From NCBI GenBank assembly GCA_052325425.1, contig JBKQUY010000025.1:1321-65320 (forward strand): a stretch of DNA of 64,000 nucleotides. The letters are read 5' to 3'. The notes beneath the pieces are model-generated. The model was given only the letters and a program-made list of their open reading frames with translations. It ran no database searches and was not told the DNA's origin. Position numbers and translations under genes: made by a program. Source of the DNA: Bacteroidia bacterium. Lineage in GTDB: Bacteria; Bacteroidota; Bacteroidia; JABEUT01. Shown one piece after another: positions 362 through 56,396 of the stretch (within the stretch, counting starts at the first letter, position 1; every line of letters begins with the position of its first letter).

Positions 362-1780
362 TTACCGAACAGGTTTATTAGGCTTTGTTTCTTTAAAATG
401 CCTGATTATTTTATCGAGGCTATTCGTATCAATTTTTTTTGCGATTATCATCTTATTTTCATCCAATATGTACATGGTAGGAGTGGATGCAACGTCATAA
501 TCGTGCCTGAAGTTACCGGTATGGTAAGTATCAATAACATTTATCCAGTCAAGGTTATGCTTTTTAATATAATTTTTCCACTTCTCTGCCGAAGTATTTG
601 TCTGTACCGCATATACTTCAACACCTTCAGCCTTAATAGAATCATACCATTTAATAAGTTTGGGGGTTTCCTTCTGGCAATGGCTGCAGTCATAGTCCCA
701 GAAATAAATTACAGTAAACTCTGCCTTTACCGAGTCAAGTGCCTGCATTACATTACTTGAATCAGGCAAAACAATAGGTATAGCTCTTTTCCCTAAAAGT
801 ATGGGTTCTAGCTGGTCTGCTCTTTCCTTTACGCGCTCCAATTGCGATGCGCTTACCCAAAATGCCAGCCCGGGGGTATAATATTTTTTTGCTATATGCA
901 CAAATACTGCATCCATGCCCATTATTTCAGAACTTTCATAAGTATAAATAATATATTGTACCAGGAATTTGAACATATCCTTATTGGTGCCTGCTTTCTG
1001 GATTAAATAATCTGCCGCGGCAATAACCGAATCAGGGTCAGGAACGGTAAGTTTGGTAAGGTATTCTTTTATTTTCGGGAAAAATACGGGAGTATGAATC
1101 AACCGGGCATCGTTAAAATTAATATTATCAAAAAAATGCGCTTTGTAATACCTGAAAGTAAAGGTAGAATCGGTTCTTCCGTTAGCTAATTCAGGAGCAG
1201 GAGGTACTACCGGTTCTTCCGCGGCGTTCAACACTTCAGCCATAAACATGTCAGAATGTTTCGCTATAAAATCGCTTCTGTATTTCTTGCCTTGTTCATT
1301 GAGTGAATCCAGTTTTTTCTTTGCTTCTTCCTTATCAGGGCCTTCTTTTGCCTGTTTTTCCAATATTTTCGTTTTTTCATGCATCTCTAATGCATTTCTC
1401 TGAAATTCATAAAAGAGCCTGTTCTCTTCGGAACCTTGCACCTTCATAGTTCCGATGTAATCGGATGTGTCAGCCTGCATCGAAAATTTTTGTTCTTTAT
1501 CAATAATGAATTCAAATAGTTTCTTTTTATTGTAGGAAATCAAAAAATAAACTCCGCCGTCTAATTCCTTAGCGCCTGAAAATTCAACATTACCTTTACC
1601 GTCTGTTTTAGCCGTGTCATATATGTAATCATGCTCGCCATAGTGGCCACCCAGATAGCAGATATCATATTTAAACCCTGTTAAAGTAAACTTCAAATCG
1701 TGCTTTTTAGGGGAAGCATTTATAGTTAAAACAGCGACAACAAAAAATAATATCCAAGTCAGAAATGCCTTTATTTTCAC
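362..1780 (-). CDS. TlpA/AhpC-TSA family thiol-disulfide oxidoreductase (secreted; thioredoxin fold with N-terminal DUF4369-like domain)
   Basis: 472 aa with GTG start and a signal peptide. The C-terminal thioredoxin motif is FWDYDCSHCQ (CxxC). The N-terminal domain is shared with the upstream paralog. Confidence 0.8.
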   Translation of the reverse strand: MKIKAFLTWILFFVVAVLTINASPKKHDLKFTLTGFKYDICYLGGHYGEHDYIYDTAKTDGKGNVEFSGAKELDGGVYFLISYNKKKLFEFIIDKEQKFSMQADTSDYIGTMKVQGSEENRLFYEFQRNALEMHEKTKILEKQAKEGPDKEEAKKKLDSLNEQGKKYRSDFIAKHSDMFMAEVLNAAEEPVVPPAPELANGRTDSTFTFRYYKAHFFDNINFNDARLIHTPVFFPKIKEYLTKLTVPDPDSVIAAADYLIQKAGTNKDMFKFLVQYIIYTYESSEIMGMDAVFVHIAKKYYTPGLAFWVSASQLERVKERADQLEPILLGKRAIPIVLPDSSNVMQALDSVKAEFTVIYFWDYDCSHCQKETPKLIKWYDSIKAEGVEVYAVQTNTSAEKWKNYIKKHNLDWINVIDTYHTGNFRHDYDVASTPTMYILDENKMIIAKKIDTNSLDKIIRHFKETKPNKPVR

Positions 1781-1851
1781 AATACCAGGTAATTGAGTTG
1801 CACAAATTTAATAATTTTGACAACCGTTTAAGAAAGGAGACATAGATATTT

Positions 1852-1917
1852 CGGGGTGTAGCGTAGTCCGGTTAGCGCGTCCCGTAGTACTGCGGGAAGG
1901 TCGGCAGTTCCAACTGC
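1852..1917 (+). pseudogene. degenerate tRNA-like copy 1 (tRNA 5' half + palindromic anticodon region, no 3' acceptor)
   Basis: Same 5' sequence as tRNA-Pro (cggggtgtagcgtagtccggttagcgcg). The anticodon arm is replaced by tcccgtagtactgcggga. The T-loop is degenerate (ttccaac) and the 3' acceptor strand is missing. It is preceded by the same TTGACA...CATAGATAT promoter-like unit. Confidence 0.55.
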
Positions 1918-1999
1918 TTTATTTTCACATTCTTTAGTATCACTGTTGCTCAATTTTAATAATTTTGACAACCCTTTAAGTAAAGGGACATAGATATTT

Positions 2000-2065
2000 C
2001 GGGGTGTAGCGTAGTCCGGTTAGCGCGTCCCGCAGTACTGCGGGAAGGTCGGCAGCTCCAACTGT
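2000..2065 (+). pseudogene. degenerate tRNA-like copy 2 (tandem 146-bp unit)
   Basis: Second tandem unit, with repeat period about 146 bp (1917-2061 vs 2062-2206). Perfect palindrome cccgcagtactgcggg in place of the anticodon loop. No acceptor 3' strand. Confidence 0.55.
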
Positions 2066-2147
2066 TTTATTTTCACATTCTTTAGTATCACTGTTGCTCA
2101 ATTTTAATAATTTTGACAACCCTTTAAGTAAAGGGACATAGATATTT

Positions 2148-2224
2148 CGGGGTGTAGCGTAGTCCGGTTAGCGCGCCACGTTCGGGACGTGGAGGTCGGC
2201 AGTTCGAATCTGCCTACCCCGACA
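2148..2224 (+). tRNA. tRNA-Pro (anticodon CGG)
   Basis: Cloverleaf by eye. Acceptor CGGGGTG/TACCCCG (with G-U). D arm GCGT/..GCGC. Anticodon stem CCACG/CGTGG with loop TTCGGGA (anticodon CGG). T arm GGCAG-TTCGAAT-CTGCC. Discriminator A. Confidence 0.75.
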
Positions 2225-2243
2225 ACCATTAGATATTATAGCT

Positions 2244-2489
2244 ATGCCTTTTTATGTGTACATTCTCTATTCACAAAAACTCGATAAGTTCTACATTGGC
2301 CATACAAATAACATAGATAGAAGAATTATTGAACACGATAACAGAGAAAATTTAGGTACAAACGACTGGGTGCTCAAATATTCTGAACAATTTCTCACAA
2401 GGTCGCTGGCCATGAAAAGAGAATCGGAAATTAAAAGAAAAAAGCGTAGAACTTATTTGGAATGGCTTATTAATAATAAGCCAGATTAG
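2244..2489 (+). CDS. GIY-YIG nuclease family protein (81 aa, stand-alone URI domain)
   Basis: N-terminus YVYILYS...KFYIGHTNNIDRRIIEH is a canonical GIY-YIG motif. Sits immediately 3' of tRNA-Pro. Its stop codon abuts a tRNA 3' fragment. Confidence 0.8.
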   Translation: MPFYVYILYSQKLDKFYIGHTNNIDRRIIEHDNRENLGTNDWVLKYSEQFLTRSLAMKRESEIKRKKRRTYLEWLINNKPD

Positions 2490-2541
2490 CGCGTCCCGCA
2501 GTACTGCGGGAAGGTCGGCAGTTCGAATCTGCCTACCCTGA
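2488..2541 (+). repeat. tRNA 3' fragment (anticodon-palindrome + T arm + acceptor 3' strand)
   Basis: agcgcgtcccgcagtactgcgggaaggtcggcagttcgaatctgcctaccctga matches the palindromic anticodon version of copies 1/2 plus an intact T arm and acceptor 3' strand. The flank gacaaccattaga is duplicated after the intact tRNA (2221-2233) and here (2538-2550). Confidence 0.6.
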
Positions 2542-2606
2542 CAACCATTAGAAGGTAATTATTTACTTGTCGGAACTAAGTTAGAAAGTAAACTATATTT
2601 AAATTA

Positions 2607-3203
2607 TCAACCTAAAACCTTCAATAGCCATAAAATCAAAAGTATCAGGAGAATTACAATTAATATATCGAAGAGCAAATCAATAAACGCCCCGAGATTT
2701 AAAAGAATACCAATTAACAATATAATCACTAATATTATTAGAAGCAATAATAATAAACTCCTCCCTCCACCTCTTTCAGTAGCGTTATCGGTCATAGTTA
2801 TTGCATCAGGCACATAACTTTTAGCCTGTATCTGTGGCTCTTCACTACTTGAAATTGTATTCTTCAGGCCTTGTTTGGCAGTAAAGCTTAAAATAGCTTT
2901 GTGTTTTATTTTTTTTATAATTCCCGAAGGAGAGTTGGCAATAGGCCTATTAACAGGGTTCACATCCGCTACCTTTGTTGTCTGCGTGCCTTTAGGTTGT
3001 TCAGTATTGAGCTGTTTATTTACAGCCGACTGAACAGGTTTTGCAGCCACTTTTGATGATGCTACCGAAGGACTGCTTTTAGTATAATCAATATAATAGC
3101 CTGGATTATAGTGGCGCCTGGTTATTGAAAAATTTGTTCCGCAGGAAGAAAATATTATGCTTGCAATCAGGCAGAGTGTGCTGAAAGTAATTAGTTTTTT
3201 CAT
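2607..3203 (-). CDS. hypothetical lipoprotein/membrane protein with extremely Leu/Ile-rich C-terminal segment
   Basis: Lipoprotein-like signal MKKLITFSTLCLIASIIFSSCG. C-terminal 50 aa almost purely L/I. Confidence 0.45.
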   Translation of the reverse strand: MKKLITFSTLCLIASIIFSSCGTNFSITRRHYNPGYYIDYTKSSPSVASSKVAAKPVQSAVNKQLNTEQPKGTQTTKVADVNPVNRPIANSPSGIIKKIKHKAILSFTAKQGLKNTISSSEEPQIQAKSYVPDAITMTDNATERGGGRSLLLLLLIILVIILLIGILLNLGAFIDLLFDILIVILLILLILWLLKVLG

Positions 3204-11261: not shown

Positions 11262-11300
11262 AAATAAAAAAGTCCCGCAAGCTTTGCGGGACTCTTTTAT
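11262..11300 (-). terminator. rho-independent terminator (bidirectional shape)
   Basis: aaaaaaGTCCCGCAAgctTTGCGGGACtcttttatt. GC hairpin flanked by an A-run upstream and a T-run downstream. Lies after the 11317..11544 gene. Confidence 0.7.
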
Positions 11301-26492: not shown

Positions 26493-26527
26493 AAACCCCT
26501 GACAGAAAATCGTCAGGGGTTTTATTT
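26493..26527 (+). terminator. rho-independent terminator of groESL
   Basis: aaaaCCCCTGACagaaaatcGTCAGGGGtttta. 8-bp GC stem followed by T-run. Confidence 0.8.
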
Positions 26528-33008: not shown

Positions 33009-34613
33009 TTATTTAGGAATGTGAGTGAGGTAAATATCCTGGTTTATCTCTGTTTTAAATGAGCCTTTATCTTCAATATTCAGGTCCTTTTTATATTCGG
33101 TGAATCCATCTGTAATTATACTTACATGATATTTTCCCGGCGGCAATATCATTACATACCTGCCTGTTGTGCCATTAGGAACATAGTTTCCATATAGCTC
33201 ATTCGTTTTTGCATCACTTATGCTAATCATTATATCGCTGAAGTTTTTAATTTTCGCTGATGTATCGGCGCTCTGAACGAGCCCAATAACAACAGAATAT
33301 AATTGTTCAGCGTTATTGAATTTTATCCTGTAAACATCAAGCCCTCCGTATCCACCCTTCCTTACTTGCGAAATATAGCCATAACTGCCATTAGCGGCAA
33401 TCCTGAAATTCATATCGTCATCGGGCGTATTTATGGGATAGCCCATATTTTGTACGGATGACCATTGATTGGCAGAATCACTCCAGTTAGCTTTAAATAT
33501 ATCGTAACCACCCATGCCTGTATGCCCTTGCGAGCTGAAATATAAAGTTTTTCCATCCGGCGAAATATTAGGGAAATCTTCGTTGCTTGGAGTATTAATT
33601 ACAGGGCCAAGGTTTTGCGGAACTCCCCAGCCTCCGTTAGGAAGTTTTTTAGAAACATAAATATCAATTCCACCAAGTCCGCCGGGACGATCGCTGGCAA
33701 AGTATATGGTACTCCCGTCCGCAGTGATTGACGCGGCTATCTGGTGCTGGTTTTTTTGGTTGATTACTTCTGGCAAAGCCATAGGAGTGCTGAAGCTTTT
33801 TCCTCCATCATCGGTAGAAGAGAAGATGCTTCCGAATCCTTTTTTATCAAAATAATAGAACAGCATGTAATCGCCTTCTTTAGATAAGCCTACTACTTCT
33901 GAGCTCTTGCCTGCCGCATCAATAGGAGGCCCAATATTAACCGCAGGCTGGTATTGCCCATCGCTTACATAAGATATATATATAGAAGGTGAAAAATTAT
34001 TTGCGCTGACTTTTTGCTTACCTGCTCCGCCACGTTTGCTGTTAAACACAATAAACGACTCATTGGTCGGAACAAAGGGGTAGTAATCATCATAGGGCGA
34101 ATTAATGTTTTTCCCTAAATTTTCAAAGGTTATATTAACCGGGAATTTCATCAGTTCCTTGGCATTCATGCAATATTGAATCTGAACCTCTGCATCCTTC
34201 ATATTATCAGGAGAACCTTTTCCCTCCTCCTTAAAATCATTGAATGTTTTAATGGCATCATCAAACCTGTATGCAAATTGATAGGCCCTGCCCAATAAAT
34301 AAAGGGTATTCGGGTTATGTTTTTTCAGGTGGGCAACCAGCTCAAGGTATGGTATTGCCTTTGTTTTATCAATATTGGTATTAAGATAACATACGCCCAG
34401 GCGGTAATTATAGAGGTCATTATCAGGGTATTTATCCACCAGGGTCAGGTATGCTTCAAGGGCATCATCAAAGTCTTCATCTGAAAAATAGTTATCGGCA
34501 TCTGTAGCACTGGCAGTAACCATATCACCAGTCTGGGCGAGAACGGGTACAAAGACTATGGAAAATAATATACTTAACGTAAGTATAATTATACTTTTAG
34601 GCATAAATATCAT
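33009..34613 (-). CDS. TPR + TolB-like WD40 beta-propeller repeat protein with C-terminal carboxypeptidase-regulatory-like domain
   Basis: Signal peptide. TPR N-terminus. Repeated GG.DIY blades similar to 11732..13753 but without an OmpA domain. Confidence 0.7.
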   Translation of the reverse strand: MIFMPKSIIILTLSILFSIVFVPVLAQTGDMVTASATDADNYFSDEDFDDALEAYLTLVDKYPDNDLYNYRLGVCYLNTNIDKTKAIPYLELVAHLKKHNPNTLYLLGRAYQFAYRFDDAIKTFNDFKEEGKGSPDNMKDAEVQIQYCMNAKELMKFPVNITFENLGKNINSPYDDYYPFVPTNESFIVFNSKRGGAGKQKVSANNFSPSIYISYVSDGQYQPAVNIGPPIDAAGKSSEVVGLSKEGDYMLFYYFDKKGFGSIFSSTDDGGKSFSTPMALPEVINQKNQHQIAASITADGSTIYFASDRPGGLGGIDIYVSKKLPNGGWGVPQNLGPVINTPSNEDFPNISPDGKTLYFSSQGHTGMGGYDIFKANWSDSANQWSSVQNMGYPINTPDDDMNFRIAANGSYGYISQVRKGGYGGLDVYRIKFNNAEQLYSVVIGLVQSADTSAKIKNFSDIMISISDAKTNELYGNYVPNGTTGRYVMILPPGKYHVSIITDGFTEYKKDLNIEDKGSFKTEINQDIYLTHIPK

Positions 34614-34680
34614 TTGAGGTTATAAAAATATAAAAAAGATTTGTCATTAACACAATCTATTAACTTTGTACAACCAAAAA

Positions 34681-34780
34681 GCGGAAGTAGCTCAGTTGGT
34701 AGAGCATCCTGACGTTCACAGTCAGGAGGTCGCGGGCCCTGACGCTTGGTCAGGGTGCTGACTGTAGCGTCAGCATTCGA
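34681..34780 (+). pseudogene. tRNA-Gly-derived tRNA-like pseudogene carrying three consecutive CTGAC/GTCAG hairpins
   Basis: First 26 nt identical to tRNA-Gly (gcggaagtagctcagttggtagagca). Followed by cctgac-gttcaca-gtcagg, ccctgac-gcttg-gtcaggg and gctgac-tgtagc-gtcagc. No acceptor 3' strand. Same upstream ttaactttgtac motif as the real tRNA. Confidence 0.55.
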
Positions 34781-34839
34781 AAAAAGCCCTATTCTTATAT
34801 AATATGTGAGGCTTTCTATTAACTTTGTACTGTCAAAAA

Positions 34840-34912
34840 GCGGAAGTAGCTCAGTTGGTAGAGCATCAGCTTCCCAAGCTGAGGGTCGCGGGTTCGAGCC
34901 CCGTTTTCCGCT
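34840..34912 (+). tRNA. tRNA-Gly (anticodon CCC)
   Basis: Acceptor GCGGAAG/TTTCCGC. Anticodon stem TCAGC/GCTGA with loop TTCCCAA. T arm GCGGG-TTCGAGC-CCCGT. Upstream TAnnTTTG-like motif (ttaactttgtac). Confidence 0.8.
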
Positions 34913-34977
34913 CTTAAGAAAAATATTAGCTACTTTAAGTTTATATATTATTTTCATTTTTGTCAGCTCACTCTATA

Positions 34978-35388
34978 TTACTTGCGTTTTGAGCGCATAG
35001 CTTTTAAGTGCCGGATACTTTTGTCCTTAGAAAATTTTTTATACTCCTCTGAATCTGTTGAATAAATGGCTATTTTCCCATAGGAGTTGCTATGAACGCC
35101 CCATGCATAGCGCTTTGTCAATGGAGAAGAACGAAAACAGGCTTGTCCTTTTGAAAAGAATTTTTCCAACTCTTTTTCTATATCAGAGTCTTTAATATTA
35201 TTTCTTATTGCAAATACGCTAAATAGTATTTCATCAGATGTATATTTATATGGATTATTCTTTATCATTTCAAATTGAATGTTTGCAACGGTCTTAACAC
35301 CATTCTTCAGAGGTGGTGTTTCTGAAACTTTTATAGGACAATCCTCTGCAACCTCGATAAATGTATTGAAATAGTTTGTGGTCTTCAT
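34978..35388 (-). CDS. hypothetical protein (136 aa), likely co-transcribed downstream of the Exo-GIY-YIG gene
   Basis: 30-bp gap after 35419..36783 on the same strand. No recognisable motif. Confidence 0.45.
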   Translation of the reverse strand: MKTTNYFNTFIEVAEDCPIKVSETPPLKNGVKTVANIQFEMIKNNPYKYTSDEILFSVFAIRNNIKDSDIEKELEKFFSKGQACFRSSPLTKRYAWGVHSNSYGKIAIYSTDSEEYKKFSKDKSIRHLKAMRSKRK

Positions 35389-35418
35389 ATCAGTATAGTT
35401 TCATAAAGTATAATCAAA

Positions 35419-36783
35419 TCAAAGCAAAATCTTTCTTAACGTTTTCGATTTTAAATACCCCCTTACCAGGTTATCCTGGTCGGCGTAATAGGTTGTGTGC
35501 TTAATAAGCTCTTTCAGTTCAGCAGGGTTTTCCATTTGTGTAGATGTATCAAAATAACCGTAACCGGCATAGTGGCCATCTTCAATTAATATAAGCGATT
35601 GTTCATCGGGCCTCCTTCCTTTGTCTATTACCATGAAATTTTTCTTTCCAAAAGAATATTCCTCCACTAACGTGTTGGCGCGCTGGTTATATAATTCTAC
35701 TGTTTCAAGTCCTGCACATATCCCATGACATTTTTTTATCTGGTGGTTAAAGCATACCTCATCTTCCGAAAGCCCGCAATATTTAAGGCAAAGCGAGTAT
35801 TCATCCATCCATGACTCTAAACGCTTCAATGCCGCTATATGTGTTGTAAATGCCTGCAACGAATTCCCTGCTTCATCATAAGGAGCTATTTTAAAATTTA
35901 TTATTCCCTGCTTATCCTCGTACCAATTGATGCTGTGGGTAAATATATCCGCCTTTTGAGCTCTGTTAAAATATGGTTTGTGTTTTTTAATTTCTTCTGT
36001 TTCCAATAATAATGCTATTATTTCGCTGCCTGTAAGTTCAAATTCCACATTGTACAGTTCATTCAGCATCTTTTTGCCTTTCCTTTCGTGGTTGTTAAAG
36101 TGGCTCATGGCGCGGTTATATATATTGGTTGACTTACCTATGTATATAATTTTTCCTTCTTTGTCGAGGAAATAATAGACGCCGCATTCTTCGGGCAATT
36201 TCTTCAGCACATAATCCTTTATCTTGTCAATCCTTCTGGCCATCAGTTCATCAACACCCATTTTGCGGTATTGCGGGTTCTGTGATTTTACCTGCAACAA
36301 AAGGTCGAACAATTTGGCAGTAGCCTCTGCATCGCCAAGCGCCCTGTGCCTGTTTTCAATGGGTATATTTAATGAAGCGCATAAATGCCCGAGGCTGTAT
36401 GATATTCTTTTCGGCAGTAATTTACGGCTAAGTCTTACTGTGCATAACTTTTCCCTCCTGAAATTATATCCCAAAAAGGCAAACTCTTCTTTTATAAAGC
36501 TATAATCGAAGCCTACATTGTGTGCGACAAATATTTTTCCTTCGGTCAGCTCTACAATCTGCTTGGCCACCTGGTGAAAGTGAGGCGCATCGGCAACCAT
36601 ATCATTTGTAATGCCTGAGAGGTTACTGTAAAACCCGCTGATATAACAGCCGGGGTTAATTAGCGTTGAGAACCTGTCTACCACCTGTAACCCATCATGA
36701 ATAAGTATGGCAATATCTATTATTCTCCCCTGGGGATGGCGGAATTTTGACCCACAGGTCTCTATATCTACTATGGCGAACAT
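35419..36783 (-). CDS. DEDDh 3'-5' exonuclease (DnaQ-like) fused to a GIY-YIG (UvrC/Cho-like) nuclease domain
   Basis: N-terminal Exo I motif FAIVDIETCG and later H..ALGDAEAT. Central GIY-YIG GVYYFLDKEGKIIYIGKSTNIYNRAMSH. Confidence 0.8.
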   Translation of the reverse strand: MFAIVDIETCGSKFRHPQGRIIDIAILIHDGLQVVDRFSTLINPGCYISGFYSNLSGITNDMVADAPHFHQVAKQIVELTEGKIFVAHNVGFDYSFIKEEFAFLGYNFRREKLCTVRLSRKLLPKRISYSLGHLCASLNIPIENRHRALGDAEATAKLFDLLLQVKSQNPQYRKMGVDELMARRIDKIKDYVLKKLPEECGVYYFLDKEGKIIYIGKSTNIYNRAMSHFNNHERKGKKMLNELYNVEFELTGSEIIALLLETEEIKKHKPYFNRAQKADIFTHSINWYEDKQGIINFKIAPYDEAGNSLQAFTTHIAALKRLESWMDEYSLCLKYCGLSEDEVCFNHQIKKCHGICAGLETVELYNQRANTLVEEYSFGKKNFMVIDKGRRPDEQSLILIEDGHYAGYGYFDTSTQMENPAELKELIKHTTYYADQDNLVRGYLKSKTLRKILL

Positions 36784-37067: not shown

Positions 37068-37514
37068 TTGCATAAATTAAAAACTGCACATTTTTGTCCC
37101 GCAATATATGCGGGATGCAATTTTTTTCCATTTTTTTGCTGAATTTTGTTAGCATTATTTTAAAATTCATTTTTAACACAGAGTCATTACGCTTCGGTTA
37201 TGATGCTGATATTTATCGTCAGCAAGCACTGAGAATAAAACTTCACAGAGGTTCACAGATCTTAATTCGTAATTAACTACCGCCAGGTCACCAATGTTTT
37301 TCATTTTTCACTTTTGGCTTTTCACTTAATAATGCAAATATAAACAATTTATTAATATAATATGAAAATATAATTTATTAAATTATCAACAACCACGGAT
37401 TATTTCAATCGAAGATGATTAGCATCAGTGAATAATCCGTCCAATCTGTGTCATCAGTGTTCTATTTGTATTGATAAAAACAAACCATAAATTTGAATCT
37501 TTTCAAATAGCGTT

Positions 37515-56363: not shown

Positions 56364-56396
56364 AAAGCCCCTGACGATACTGTCAGGGGCTTTTAT
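56364..56396. terminator. bidirectional rho-independent terminator
   Basis: aaaaGCCCCTGACgatactGTCAGGGGCtttta between convergent genes. Same CTGAC/GTCAG stem family as the groEL terminator. Confidence 0.8.

What the first reader, a model, noticed from the sequence alone, without database searches (positions are those of the whole stretch)
1790..2560. tRNA-Pro locus: tandem degenerate tRNA-like units plus a GIY-YIG gene wedged between the intact tRNA and a duplicated tRNA 3' fragment
Three about 146-bp tandem units each carry a promoter-like TTGACA...CATAGATAT sequence and the same tRNA 5' half. Only the third is a foldable tRNA-Pro(CGG). The first two replace the anticodon arm with a perfect palindrome (cccgcagtactgcggg) and lack an acceptor 3' strand. 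Directly after the intact tRNA sits an 81-aa GIY-YIG gene whose stop codon abuts a tRNA 3' fragment (palindrome + T arm + acceptor 3' strand). That fragment has the same gacaaccattaga flank found after the intact tRNA. The layout resembles a small GIY-YIG-bearing element that targeted or duplicated a tRNA gene (attL/attR-like direct repeats). Small GIY-YIG ORFs next to tRNAs recur in Bacteroidota, but their mobility has not been characterised as far as I know.
Basis: partly seen in the sequence, partly recalled or inferred. Interest (0 to 1): 0.6.

Follow-up and report, generated by a model that had tools for sequence, protein, structure and literature searches.

The report
tRNA-resident mini GIY-YIG nuclease element
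The tRNA-Pro locus holds one copy of a widespread, apparently undescribed kind of tiny selfish module: an 81-residue nuclease gene sits between an intact tRNA gene and crippled copies of that tRNA in which a conserved GC-rich hairpin replaces the anticodon arm.

Summary
It is one case of a conserved architecture. In 82 loci encoding relatives of the 81-aa GIY-YIG protein, mostly from Bacteroidota and allied phyla, 54 have a same-strand tRNA ending within 100 nt upstream. Ten isoacceptors are involved. After the ORF comes a partial copy of that same tRNA, and the ORF's last codons usually lie in its D arm. In this copy a short hairpin (TCCCG..CGGGA, TCCGCC..GGCGGA and others) replaces part of the tRNA. 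At least 24 loci also carry upstream arrays of "5' part + hairpin" units cut off near the T loop, like window units 1 and 2. Hairpin class follows protein clade. Divergent elements pile up serially at a single tRNA. Four relatives have the identical tRNA-Pro beside the same neighbour gene, with no nuclease gene, extra unit or hairpin. The protein is a bare Slx1/UPF0213-type catalytic domain under purifying selection. The hairpin is identical in two genomes whose synonymous sites are saturated. My best reading is a homing-endonuclease-like selfish element that spreads and amplifies through nuclease-stimulated homologous recombination within tRNA sequence. That mechanism is inferred, not shown. 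I found no description of this in the searchable literature.

The parts
1763..1851 (+). Host upstream region. It holds the start of the divergent thioredoxin-like gene (CTTTATTTTCACA, 1769-1781) and a promoter-like stretch before unit 1.
   Evidence: The stretch aaatttaataatttt...catagatattt is homologous to the tRNA-Pro promoter side in relatives L083 and L085.
1852..1999 (+). Upstream pseudo-unit 1. It consists of the tRNA-Pro 5' part (1852-1879), hairpin H with one T/G mismatch (1880-1897), the variable region and T-stem start AGGTCGGCAGTTC (1898-1910), the fold-back filler CAACTG (1911-1916), and a diverged copy of the host upstream region (1917-1999).
   Evidence: Neither ARAGORN nor Rfam calls it a tRNA. 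The hairpin 1903-1918 followed by TTATTTT is flagged as terminator-like.
2000..2147 (+). Upstream pseudo-unit 2, with the same build as unit 1. Its H is a perfect palindrome at 2028-2045.
2148..2222 (+). Intact tRNA-Pro(CGG), the only functional copy in the locus.
   Evidence: ARAGORN and Rfam RF00005 at 61.8 bits. The sequence is identical to the tRNA-Pro of relatives L083, L085, L086 and L087.
2223..2233 (+). 3' flank CAACCATTAGA, the left copy of the duplicated flank. Homology with the downstream copy ends here.
2244..2489 (+). 81-aa GIY-YIG nuclease gene of the Slx1/UPF0213 type, a bare catalytic domain. The TAG stop (2487-2489) lies in the D-loop remnant of the tRNA copy.
   Evidence: Pfam PF01541 at E 2e-12. 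Y6, Y17, G19, R27, H31 and E60 are invariant across 30 homologs. A profile built from the 30-homolog alignment hits PDB sequence 1zg2 at 2.6e-13 and Slx1 at 1e-5. The AlphaFold2 model has pLDDT 90.5 and its best Foldseek hits are 1zg2, Slx1 and I-TevI. Against L001, pN is 0.119 and pS 0.887.
2479..2493 (+). A': remnant of the tRNA D arm (AGCCAGATTAGCGCG), overlapping the end of the ORF.
2494..2511 (+). Hairpin H (TCCCGCAGTACTGCGGGA), which replaces the 17-nt anticodon arm in the downstream copy.
   Evidence: It is 18/18 identical in L001 although synonymous sites are saturated. It folds as a 7-bp stem with a 4-nt loop.
2512..2552 (+). Variable region, T arm and acceptor 3' strand of the downstream copy (one C-to-T difference from the intact tRNA), followed by the duplicated flank CAACCATTAGA.
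34681..34790 (+). Related scar at the second tRNA locus. It consists of the tRNA-Gly 5' part, three hairpins (34707-34727, 34737-34755, 34756-34775) and TTCGA, and lies upstream of the intact tRNA-Gly(CCC) at 34840-34913. No nuclease gene is present.
   Evidence: Relatives L083 and L085 leave no room for such a unit at their tRNA-Gly: the gap to the flanking gene is about 75 nt.

Best explanation
The locus holds a miniature selfish element of a large chromosomal family. Its only gene is an approximately 80-aa Slx1/UPF0213-type GIY-YIG nuclease. It lives inside a local duplication of a tRNA gene, so that one tRNA copy stays intact while every other copy carries the element's hairpin (H) in place of a tRNA segment.

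Proposed mechanism (inferred):
1. The nuclease makes breaks in or near the tRNA gene, and the T loop is a hot spot.
2. The breaks are repaired by homologous recombination using the tRNA-homologous segment that sits next to the ORF.
3. A crossover on one side of H (Campbell-type insertion-duplication, or homing between alleles) places the ORF between an intact tRNA and an H-bearing partial copy.
4. Further breaks, unequal exchange and deletions then give tandem ORF units, serial accretion of different elements, and upstream arrays of 'solo' 5'-part+H units such as window units 1 and 2.
5. H is a constrained, clade-specific component. It most likely makes the spare copies immune to the nuclease or serves as its structured recognition site. 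It may also stabilise the 3' end of the ORF's mRNA.

What is shown: the architecture, its recurrence, hairpin/protein co-variation, presence/absence among relatives, purifying selection on the protein, and constraint on H. What is inferred: nuclease activity, its target, the recombination route, and the role of H.
For: Association with tRNAs:
- Of 82 loci, 54 have a same-strand tRNA ending within 100 nt upstream of the ORF (median gap 38.5 nt), and 68 have one within 1.5 kb. Eight more have no tRNA within 1.5 kb but lie within 400 nt of a contig start. In 66 a GC hairpin lies next to the stop codon.
- The tRNAs are Ala-GGC, Met-CAT, Val-TAC, Val-GAC, Asp-GTC, Asn-GTT, Pro-TGG, Pro-CGG, Arg-ACG and Phe-GAA.
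- The downstream copy's T arm and acceptor strand are identical to the local tRNA in 27 of the 31 loci where that segment could be compared.

Site of the hairpin and the upstream units:
- H replaces defined segments: positions 27-43, 38-47, 25-34 or 51-58.
- Upstream 5'-part+H units occur in at least 24 loci.
- These units end within -5 to +9 nt of T54 in most cases, whatever the position of H. Second hairpins sit right after the GTTC of the T loop.

Signs of mobility:
- Hairpin class follows the protein clade, and the tRNA-Pro elements nest among tRNA-Ala elements, which indicates a target switch.
- L089 carries three divergent GIY-YIG genes in series at one tRNA-Ala. L052 has at least 7 tandem units. 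L076 has two units, and its last copy has a different, host-type flank.
- Permuted layouts (L079, L040, L038, L091) keep the rule that all copies but one carry H.
- L083, L085, L086 and L087 have the identical tRNA-Pro next to the orthologous neighbour gene but no element.

Constraint and precedent:
- The protein is under purifying selection, and 22 nt around H are identical between the window and L001 although pS is 0.887.
- The window's unit junction GGCAGTTC|CAACTG is a fold-back palindrome, as expected from a broken end in the T loop.
- Phage SegB, a GIY-YIG nuclease encoded beside tRNA genes, cleaves inside tRNA genes at a T-loop-like motif. It drives recombination-dependent tandem amplification of tRNA plus a truncated segB, with a junction between the tRNA 5' end and the segB 3' end (PMC13096335).
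Against: - There is no biochemical or transcript evidence of any kind.
- The protein is a bare catalytic domain with no DNA-binding module, so sequence-specific homing is not obviously possible.
- If the nuclease cuts the native tRNA gene, the retained intact copy would remain a target.
- A passive 'immunity' allele need not be a conserved hairpin, yet H is conserved.
- The three H copies in L089 are nearly identical although their ORFs are divergent. H is therefore homogenised within a locus rather than simply carried by each ORF.
- The origin of the first upstream unit is not explained by a single recombination step.
- The family is essentially absent from the phage and plasmid collections, so no vehicle for horizontal spread is evident.
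- The element-free sites found have the tRNA in the opposite orientation, so they are not base-precise empty sites.
- H resembles ordinary host terminator hairpins.
Confidence: 0.5

Rival explanations
1. Hairpin-directed element. The Slx1-like nuclease is structure-specific and recognises the H hairpin or cruciform by its conserved stem base, not the tRNA sequence. It cuts beside H, and insertion or copying happens at H-bearing sites. This is analogous to the hairpin-dependent REP/RAYT and IS200/IS605 systems. The nuclease clade writes or selects the hairpin, so each spare tRNA copy is 'stamped' with it.
For: - The closest structures are Slx1 and UPF0213, which are structure-specific nucleases.
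- The stem base is conserved while the centre varies, with 86 distinct hairpins.
- Hairpin class co-varies with protein clade, and two classes can sit in one pseudo-tRNA (L067, L082, L043).
- New elements accumulate next to existing H-bearing copies.
- The ORF/tRNA junction lies 5-28 nt 5' of H, whichever tRNA segment H replaces.
- H is strongly constrained.
Against: - Apart from the tRNA modules, H-like hairpins in the window are just terminators. There is no genome-wide spread like that of REPs.
- The ends of the upstream units fit tRNA coordinates (the T loop) at least as well as distance from H.
- No mechanism is known by which a hydrolytic GIY-YIG nuclease would write a hairpin.
- The centres of H resemble the native anticodon loop (p about 0.003, not corrected for phylogeny), which suggests local origin.
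Confidence: 0.22
2. Host-beneficial tRNA-operon accessory. The nuclease and the pseudo-tRNA/hairpin units are maintained by the host. They might regulate or process the tRNA transcript, act as decoys for tRNA-targeting integrases or anticodon nucleases, or amplify tRNA loci under stress as SegB does for phage.
For: - The module is chromosomal and absent from phage and plasmid collections.
- The protein is under purifying selection.
- The family is wide and old, with 4,705 clusters (at 50% identity) at E<=1e-10.
- The module lies directly downstream of the tRNA on the same strand, which is compatible with co-transcription.
- There is a precedent for adaptive amplification driven by a GIY-YIG nuclease.
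Against: - Distribution among close relatives is patchy.
- Many different tRNAs are involved.
- Truncated ORFs (L008), tandem duplications and serial accretion look like parasitic dynamics.
- There is no meaningful match to known defence families.
- Full-length spare tRNA copies are inactivated rather than kept (L022).
Confidence: 0.13
3. Ordinary remnant of integrase-mediated island integration into a tRNA gene (attL/attR), with the island since deleted down to a single small ORF.
For: The geometry of an intact tRNA plus a displaced 3' fragment as direct repeats is the classic signature (PMC9897764).
Against: - No integrase lies between or near the repeats.
- The same 250-bp cargo recurs in dozens of lineages.
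- The repeat carries a conserved hairpin substitution.
- Upstream 5' arrays and ORF/tRNA overlap are not produced by integrases.
Confidence: 0.02
4. Assembly artefact of a repeat-rich region in a metagenome-assembled genome.
For: The window and L002 differ in the number of units. Many homologs lie on very short contigs.
Against: The same architecture is present in isolate genomes (Flavobacterium soyae, Flavobacterium sp. CF108, Niabella ginsengisoli, Niabella hirudinis, Pedobacter albus) and in long-read chromosome-level assemblies.
Confidence: 0.02

Closest known systems
SegB, the free-standing GIY-YIG homing endonuclease of T-even phages, encoded in the tRNA gene cluster
   Same: It is a GIY-YIG nuclease gene sitting beside tRNA genes. 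It cleaves inside tRNA genes at a motif (RAWTSGAAC) that is the complement of the T-loop sequence. It drives recombination-dependent tandem amplification whose unit is a tRNA plus a C-terminally truncated nuclease gene, with a junction between the tRNA 5' end and the nuclease 3' end (PMC13096335). In the present family the ORF's 3' end overlaps the tRNA 5' part, the upstream units break off at the T loop, and tandem ORF+tRNA units occur.
   Different: From my own knowledge, SegB is about 220 aa, carries a DNA-binding region and belongs to the HEase/UvrC lineage. The present protein is 81 aa, a bare catalytic domain of the Slx1/UPF0213 lineage. SegB is a phage gene, whereas this family is chromosomal. 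No hairpin-substituted tRNA copies are described for SegB.
Stand-alone bacterial Slx1-like/UPF0213 proteins (BH0048 1zg2, EF2693 1ywl; YhbQ-type)
   Same: They are the best sequence and structure matches, have the same size and show the same minimal GIY-YIG fold. The 2006 classification describes prokaryotic Slx1-like proteins as the minimal variant without auxiliary domains (PMC1564403).
   Different: No function, tRNA linkage, hairpin or mobility has been reported for them in the literature I could search. Whether the tRNA linkage extends beyond the clade sampled here was not tested.
tRNA-targeting integrative elements (tyrosine-integrase islands and prophages with attL/attR)
   Same: An intact tRNA lies at one end and a displaced partial tRNA copy at the other, as direct repeats. 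Tandem accretion occurs at one tRNA.
   Different: Here there is no integrase and the cargo is one 250-bp gene. The partial copy has a conserved hairpin in place of a tRNA arm. Upstream 5'-part arrays are present, and the ORF's stop codon lies inside the tRNA copy.
Hairpin-dependent elements: REP/RAYT and IS200/IS605
   Same: A small nuclease gene is accompanied by short hairpins with a conserved stem base and a variable centre. Hairpin class tracks protein clade.
   Different: Those systems use HUH/Y1 transposases and single-stranded DNA chemistry, and REPs are dispersed genome-wide. Here the enzyme is GIY-YIG. In the one 64-kb window examined for this, the hairpins are confined to tRNA copies apart from ordinary terminators.
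Group I introns with GIY-YIG homing endonucleases in tRNA anticodon loops
   Same: The anticodon region of a tRNA gene is the site affected, and a GIY-YIG gene is associated with it.
   Different: No ribozyme is detected (Rfam search). The functional tRNA is not interrupted, and the disrupted copies lack an anticodon altogether.

Membership tests
GIY-YIG nuclease superfamily (Pfam PF01541) | GIY and YIG motifs with the catalytic Tyr, Tyr, Arg, His and Glu residues in a beta-beta-alpha-beta-alpha core | tested here: met
   Pfam E 2.1e-12 over residues 3-70. Y6, Y17, G19, R27, H31 and E60 are invariant in 30 homologs. The AlphaFold2 model has pLDDT 90.5 with the order E-E-H-E-H-H.
Slx1/UPF0213 lineage of GIY-YIG | Closest in sequence and fold to Slx1/UPF0213. 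Minimal domain without auxiliary domains, and no conserved C-terminal Asn of the UvrC/HEase lineage. | tested here: met
   A profile of the homolog alignment against PDB sequences gives 1zg2 at 2.6e-13, 1ywl at 4.3e-10 and Slx1 at 1e-5. Foldseek ranks 1zg2, then Slx1 (TMq 0.60-0.67), ahead of I-TevI. No invariant Asn is present. The criteria are taken from PMC1564403.
Homing endonuclease gene (free-standing) | Presence/absence polymorphism of the gene at a homologous site | tested here: met
   L083, L085, L086 and L087 have the identical tRNA-Pro beside the orthologous neighbour gene and no element. The window and L001 have the element. Caveat: the relatives share 72-76% aa identity in the neighbour gene, and their tRNA is in inverted orientation.
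Homing endonuclease gene (free-standing) | The enzyme cleaves the element-free allele site-specifically, and the element-bearing allele is resistant | not testable with these tools
   There is only indirect evidence: every spare tRNA copy carries H, and breakpoints cluster at the T loop.
Homing endonuclease gene (free-standing) | A DNA-binding or targeting module joined to the catalytic domain | tested here: not met
   The 81 aa are all catalytic domain. The NCBIfam group-I-intron endonuclease model scores 22.8 bits, far below its cut-off of 56.
Integrase-type tRNA-integrating island | A tyrosine or serine recombinase gene within the element bounded by the tRNA repeats | tested here: not met
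   Only the 81-aa ORF lies between the repeats.
tRNA (status of units 1 and 2 and of the 3' fragment) | Cloverleaf with an anticodon arm and a paired acceptor stem; detected by covariance model | tested here: not met
   ARAGORN and Rfam detect only 2148-2223, and no further match appears at E<=10. In the folds, H forms and the acceptor stem is absent.
REP/RAYT or IS200/IS605 | HUH/Y1 transposase; hairpins dispersed through the genome or at both element ends | tested here: not met
   The protein is GIY-YIG. The other H-like hairpins in the 64-kb window are terminators.
Group I intron | Ribozyme core interrupting the tRNA | tested here: not met
   No Rfam intron match in 1500-3000 at E<=10.

The most novel reading that the evidence does not exclude
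A new class of bacterial mobile element acts as a gene drive on tRNA genes. A minimal Slx1-like, structure-specific nuclease, together with its clade-specific hairpin, overwrites an arm of every available copy of its target tRNA gene with that hairpin. It is held in check only by selection for one intact copy. In some layouts the surviving tRNA may itself be element-borne, which would make the host dependent on the element. The hairpin would then be the nuclease's recognition and recombination site, not a passive scar.
Probability: 0.3. Interest if true: 0.9.

Novelty: new variant of a known kind. Interest (0 to 1): 0.78.

Why it matters
Stand-alone bacterial Slx1/UPF0213 (YhbQ-type) GIY-YIG proteins have solved structures (deposited 2005) but no function that I could find. 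Here a large clade of them, part of a family of 4,705 clusters (at 50% identity) at E<=1e-10, shows a rigid and readable genomic context that points to a substrate: tRNA genes and a defined hairpin. If the reading is right, three things follow.

- Some of the smallest autonomous selfish elements known (about 330 bp) exploit the universal conservation of tRNA genes as recombination homology.
- They would explain many odd 'tRNA-???' calls, pseudo-tRNA arrays and assembly breaks at tRNA loci in Bacteroidota and allied phyla.
- They may promote rearrangements at tRNA loci.

The system is directly testable, because cultured carriers exist (Flavobacterium soyae, Niabella spp., Pedobacter albus) and the protein has only 81 residues. 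It might also yield a compact structure- or site-specific nuclease.

Tried and rejected
- Rfam at E<=10 over 1500-3000 found nothing but the tRNA.
- Eight literature searches covered GIY-YIG with tRNA, Bacteroidetes, palindromes, tRNA fragments, UPF0213/YhbQ, COG2827 and B. thetaiotaomicron. None turned up a description of this architecture. PMC9897764 treats tRNA fragments only as integrase or CRISPR products.
- tblastn against the phage and plasmid collections gave no match. IMG/VR gave a single locus at a contig edge, probably host flank.
- PADLOC and PHROGs gave only marginal hits.
- To look for an RNA-level signal in H, I compared G-T with A-C single mismatches. The counts were 8 against 4, which is not decisive.
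- Perfect palindromy of H is enriched, but only 12 of 65 even-length hairpins are perfect. Symmetric duplex recognition is therefore not required.
- I first thought the upstream units were cut at a fixed distance from H. Measured in tRNA coordinates they cluster at the T loop at least as well.
Bacteroidota use other promoter motifs, so this says little.
- The idea that H derives from the native anticodon arm has some support (p about 0.003), but the Val-TAC elements that drive it are related, so the evidence is weak.
- Differences between the downstream copy and the intact tRNA are too rare to tell host-derived from element-derived halves. The two are identical in 27 of the 31 loci compared.
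- I did not use the metagenome scan for a base-precise empty site, because the window's organism appears only in NCBI MAG records.
Full report
**1. The observation**

- Tandem Repeats Finder reports a 148-bp unit, 2.6 copies, 96% matches and score 700 at 1797-2175. The repeat finder gives copies at 1797-1944, 1945-2092 (94%) and 2093-2240 (68%).
- ARAGORN finds one tRNA here, tRNA-Pro(CGG) at 2148-2223. The Rfam tRNA model scores it 61.8 bits and nothing else in 1500-3000 matches even at E<=10. The two upstream units and the downstream fragment are therefore not tRNAs.
- Units 1 and 2 start at 1852 and 2000. Each has the tRNA's first 28 nt, then an 18-nt palindrome (H) where the 17-nt anticodon arm should be, then AGGTCGGCAG(T/C)TC. 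Each breaks off inside the T loop. H is TCCCGCAGTACTGCGGGA; unit 1 has one T/G mismatch.
- The junction GGCAGTTC|CAACTG|CTTTATTTTCACA contains a fold-back copy of GCAGTT. It runs into a diverged copy of the host upstream region that includes the first 13 nt of the neighbouring gene.
- The ORF at 2244-2489 encodes an 81-aa GIY-YIG protein. Its stop codon is the TAG of a D-loop remnant. After it come H (2494-2511), the variable region, the T arm, the acceptor 3' strand and the same CAACCATTAGA flank that follows the intact tRNA.
- The hairpin pattern occurs 5 times in the window against 0.18 expected.
- A second assembly of the same organism has one upstream unit, not two.

**2. The protein**

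- Pfam GIY-YIG matches at E 2e-12.
- In an alignment of 30 homologs, Y6, Y17, G19, R27, H31 and E60 are invariant.
- A profile of that alignment finds UPF0213 proteins BH0048 (1zg2, 2.6e-13) and EF2693 (1ywl) first, then Slx1.
- An AlphaFold2 model (pLDDT 90.5) matches 1zg2, then the Slx1 nuclease domain (TMq 0.60-0.67), then the I-TevI catalytic domain.
- It is thus a bare catalytic domain of the Slx1/UPF0213 lineage, which the 2006 classification describes as the minimal stand-alone form (PMC1564403).
- Against its relative in L001 (79% aa identity), pN is 0.119 while pS is 0.887, which is saturated. The protein is therefore under purifying selection.
- A profile search finds 4,705 clusters (at 50% identity) at E<=1e-10.
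- There is no match in the phage or plasmid collections and only one in IMG/VR, at a contig edge. Defence and phage family libraries give nothing meaningful.

**3. The same layout elsewhere**

L001 comes from a related genome with the same upstream thioredoxin-like gene. It has tRNA-Pro(CGG), the GIY-YIG gene, and a fragment with the identical H. Its tRNA body differs from the window's in the D and T arms, and in each genome the fragment's T arm and acceptor strand match the local tRNA.

A scan of one genome per species found more than 456 confirmed relatives, of which 80 loci were kept. With the window and L001 this makes 82 loci.

- 54 have a same-strand tRNA ending within 100 nt upstream (median gap 38.5 nt).
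- 68 have one within 1.5 kb.
- 8 more have no tRNA within 1.5 kb but lie within 400 nt of a contig start.
- 66 have a GC hairpin next to the stop codon.

The tRNAs are Ala-GGC, Met-CAT (elongator and initiator types), Val-TAC, Val-GAC, Asp-GTC, Asn-GTT, Pro-TGG, Pro-CGG, Arg-ACG and Phe-GAA. Hosts are mainly Bacteroidota, Ignavibacteriota, Chlorobiota, Cloacimonadota and Marinimicrobia. They include isolates: Flavobacterium soyae, Flavobacterium sp. CF108, two Niabella species and Pedobacter albus.

Downstream of the ORF lies a partial copy of the same tRNA. The ORF's last codons, and usually its stop (the TAG of GGTTAG, GGCTAG or GGTAG), lie in the copy's D arm. The 3' part of the copy is identical to the intact tRNA in 27 of the 31 loci where it could be compared.

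**4. The hairpin**

- H replaces defined segments: the whole anticodon arm (27-43, 17 nt replaced by 16-20 nt) in most TCCCG-class elements; 38-47 (10 nt by 16) in TCCGCC-class tRNA-Met elements; 25-34 in Asn and Val-GAC elements; and 51-58 in Asp elements.
- Some copies carry a second hairpin right after the GTTC of the T loop.
- Among 86 distinct hairpins the stem base is conserved (TCC...GGA) and the centre varies. Twelve of the 65 even-length hairpins are perfect palindromes, more than chance predicts but a minority.
- G-T and A-C mismatch counts (8 against 4) do not settle whether pairing matters in RNA.
- Hairpin class follows the protein tree.
- Between the window and L001, 22 nt around H are identical although synonymous sites are saturated, so H is constrained.
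- H-like hairpins elsewhere in the window are ordinary terminators: a hairpin followed by a T run at 11273, 37097, 26499 and 56371.
- The centres of H resemble the native anticodon loop more than shuffled pairings do (p about 0.003). The cases that drive this are related to one another.

**5. The upstream units are part of the system**

- Units of 'tRNA 5' part + H + a few nt of variable region or T stem + short A-rich linker' precede the intact tRNA in at least 24 loci. There are from 1 to 5 copies with periods of 78-148 nt, and units within an array are usually identical.
- They end within -5 to +9 nt of T54 in most cases, whichever segment H replaces.
- In several loci the promoter-like sequence lies only before the first unit.
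- The window's tRNA-Gly locus has such a unit, with three hairpins of another class and no nuclease gene. Relatives have no room for one there. It looks like a scar.

**6. Signs of mobility**

- The tRNA-Pro elements nest among tRNA-Ala elements in the protein tree.
- L076 has two ORF+copy units, and only the last copy has a different, host-type flank. In L008 the second ORF is truncated.
- L052 has at least seven units with a 337-bp period, and L007 has three ORFs.
- L089 has three divergent GIY-YIG genes in series after one tRNA-Ala, each followed by an H-bearing copy. The three H copies are nearly identical.
- Permuted layouts exist: unit-ORF-intact tRNA in L079 and L091, unit-ORF-unit-tRNA in L040, and ORF-tRNA-copy in L038. 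In all of them every tRNA copy but one carries H.
- Four genomes whose neighbour gene is 72-76% identical (L083, L085, L086, L087) have a tRNA-Pro(CGG) of identical sequence at that gene, but no ORF, unit or hairpin. L084 lacks the tRNA, and L088 has an internally deleted remnant.
- In the four, the tRNA points the other way and is flanked by a 13-nt inverted repeat. The comparison is therefore presence/absence at a locus, not a base-precise empty site.

**7. How it most likely works**

The layouts fit recombination within tRNA homology.

- An ORF joined to a tRNA segment that carries H can integrate by a single crossover on one side of H. A crossover in the 3' part gives tRNA-ORF-copy, as in the window. 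A crossover in the 5' part gives unit-ORF-tRNA, as in L079.
- Only products that keep one intact tRNA survive.
- Recombination between the repeats restores an empty site or adds units. Deletion of ORFs leaves solo units, and unequal exchange expands them.
- The clustering of breakpoints and second hairpins at the T loop, together with the fold-back junction in the window, points to breaks there.
- Phage SegB gives a tested precedent. It is a GIY-YIG nuclease encoded beside tRNA genes and cleaves inside them at RAWTSGAAC, the complement of the T-loop motif. It drives recombination-dependent tandem amplification of tRNA plus a truncated segB, with a junction between the tRNA 5' end and the segB 3' end (PMC13096335).

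I therefore read the family as homing-endonuclease-like selfish genes specialised on tRNA genes. The role of H is open. It could give immunity to cleavage, serve as the nuclease's structured site (Slx1 enzymes are structure-specific), or act as an RNA 3' stabiliser.

Weak points remain:
- the protein has no DNA-binding module;
- the intact tRNA copy would remain a target;
- the origin of the first upstream unit is not explained;
- no vehicle for transfer between cells is evident.

**8. Comparison with what is known, and novelty**

The family shares its geometry with integrase islands but has no integrase. It shares hairpin logic with REP/RAYT but has a different enzyme and shows no dispersal. 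It shares tRNA targeting with group I introns but has no ribozyme. It shares the nuclease family and the tRNA context with SegB, but belongs to a different lineage, is far smaller and is chromosomal.

Eight full-text searches found no description of this architecture. Papers in subscription journals were not searchable. I rate it a new variant of a known kind (a selfish nuclease gene), with a real chance that it is a new class.

Noticed in passing
window 34640-34913: The tRNA-Gly(CCC) gene is preceded by a pseudo-unit with its own promoter-like copy. The unit consists of the tRNA-Gly 5' part, three hairpins of a different class (yCTGAC...GTCAGr) and TTCGA, and no nuclease gene is nearby. Relatives L083 and L085 have only about 75 nt between the flanking gene and tRNA-Gly, so the unit is lineage-specific. 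It is probably a scar left by a lost element.
   Followed up: partly
window 1780-2240, compared with L083 2725-3001, L085 2394-3001, L086 and L087: tRNA-Pro(CGG) is inverted relative to four related genomes. In those genomes the tRNA is bracketed by a 13-nt inverted repeat (AAATTTAATAATT), which could mediate the inversion.
   Followed up: partly
window 33009-36783, compared with L083 1-3001: In relatives, the block PD40/TPR gene, tRNA-Gly and 454-aa gene lies directly beside tRNA-Pro and the thioredoxin-like gene. In the window the two are about 33 kb apart. Both rearrangement ends lie at tRNA loci that carry hairpin-bearing pseudo-units.
   Followed up: no
window 35419-36783 (-): A 454-aa protein with RNase_T exonuclease, GIY-YIG and UvrC_M domains in its orthologs. 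It is a different GIY-YIG lineage, conserved in all relatives, and unrelated to the small ORF.
   Followed up: no
window 11273-11291, 37097-37115, 26499-26516, 56371-56386: These are ordinary intrinsic terminators whose stems (GTCCCGC...GCGGGAC and CCCCTGAC...GTCAGGGG) resemble the two hairpin classes found inside the pseudo-tRNAs. The hairpins might derive from, or mimic, host terminator hairpins.
   Followed up: partly
L002 1-350, compared with window 1744-2240: Another assembly of the same organism has one upstream pseudo-unit where the window has two. This is either copy-number polymorphism or assembly collapse.
   Followed up: no
L089 1130-1175 and 2340-2375: The terminators after the first and the last tRNA copy have the same stem but reverse-complemented loops (CCCTGAAAACAGGG against CCCTGTTTTCAGGG). 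This looks like a flip of the hairpin.
   Followed up: no
L088 about 2330-2400 (window orientation): A tRNA-Pro remnant lacks the stretch from the anticodon loop to the T loop. It lies next to an HTH/peptidase-S24 (repressor-like) gene, in the orientation seen in the window.
   Followed up: no
L079 4220-4243 and L091 about 540-563: In these layouts the nuclease ORF lies directly against the 5' end of the intact tRNA. In L079 it reads through the tRNA's 5' half to the D-loop TAG. In L091 it appears to end at or just before the tRNA start. In L079, RNase P processing of the tRNA would cut the mRNA before its stop codon, which is a possible built-in limit on expression.
   Followed up: no
one search hits P0191-P0195: Several database proteins of 125-214 aa contain two matched stretches of the domain. 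They are probably read-through calls across tandem elements.
   Followed up: no
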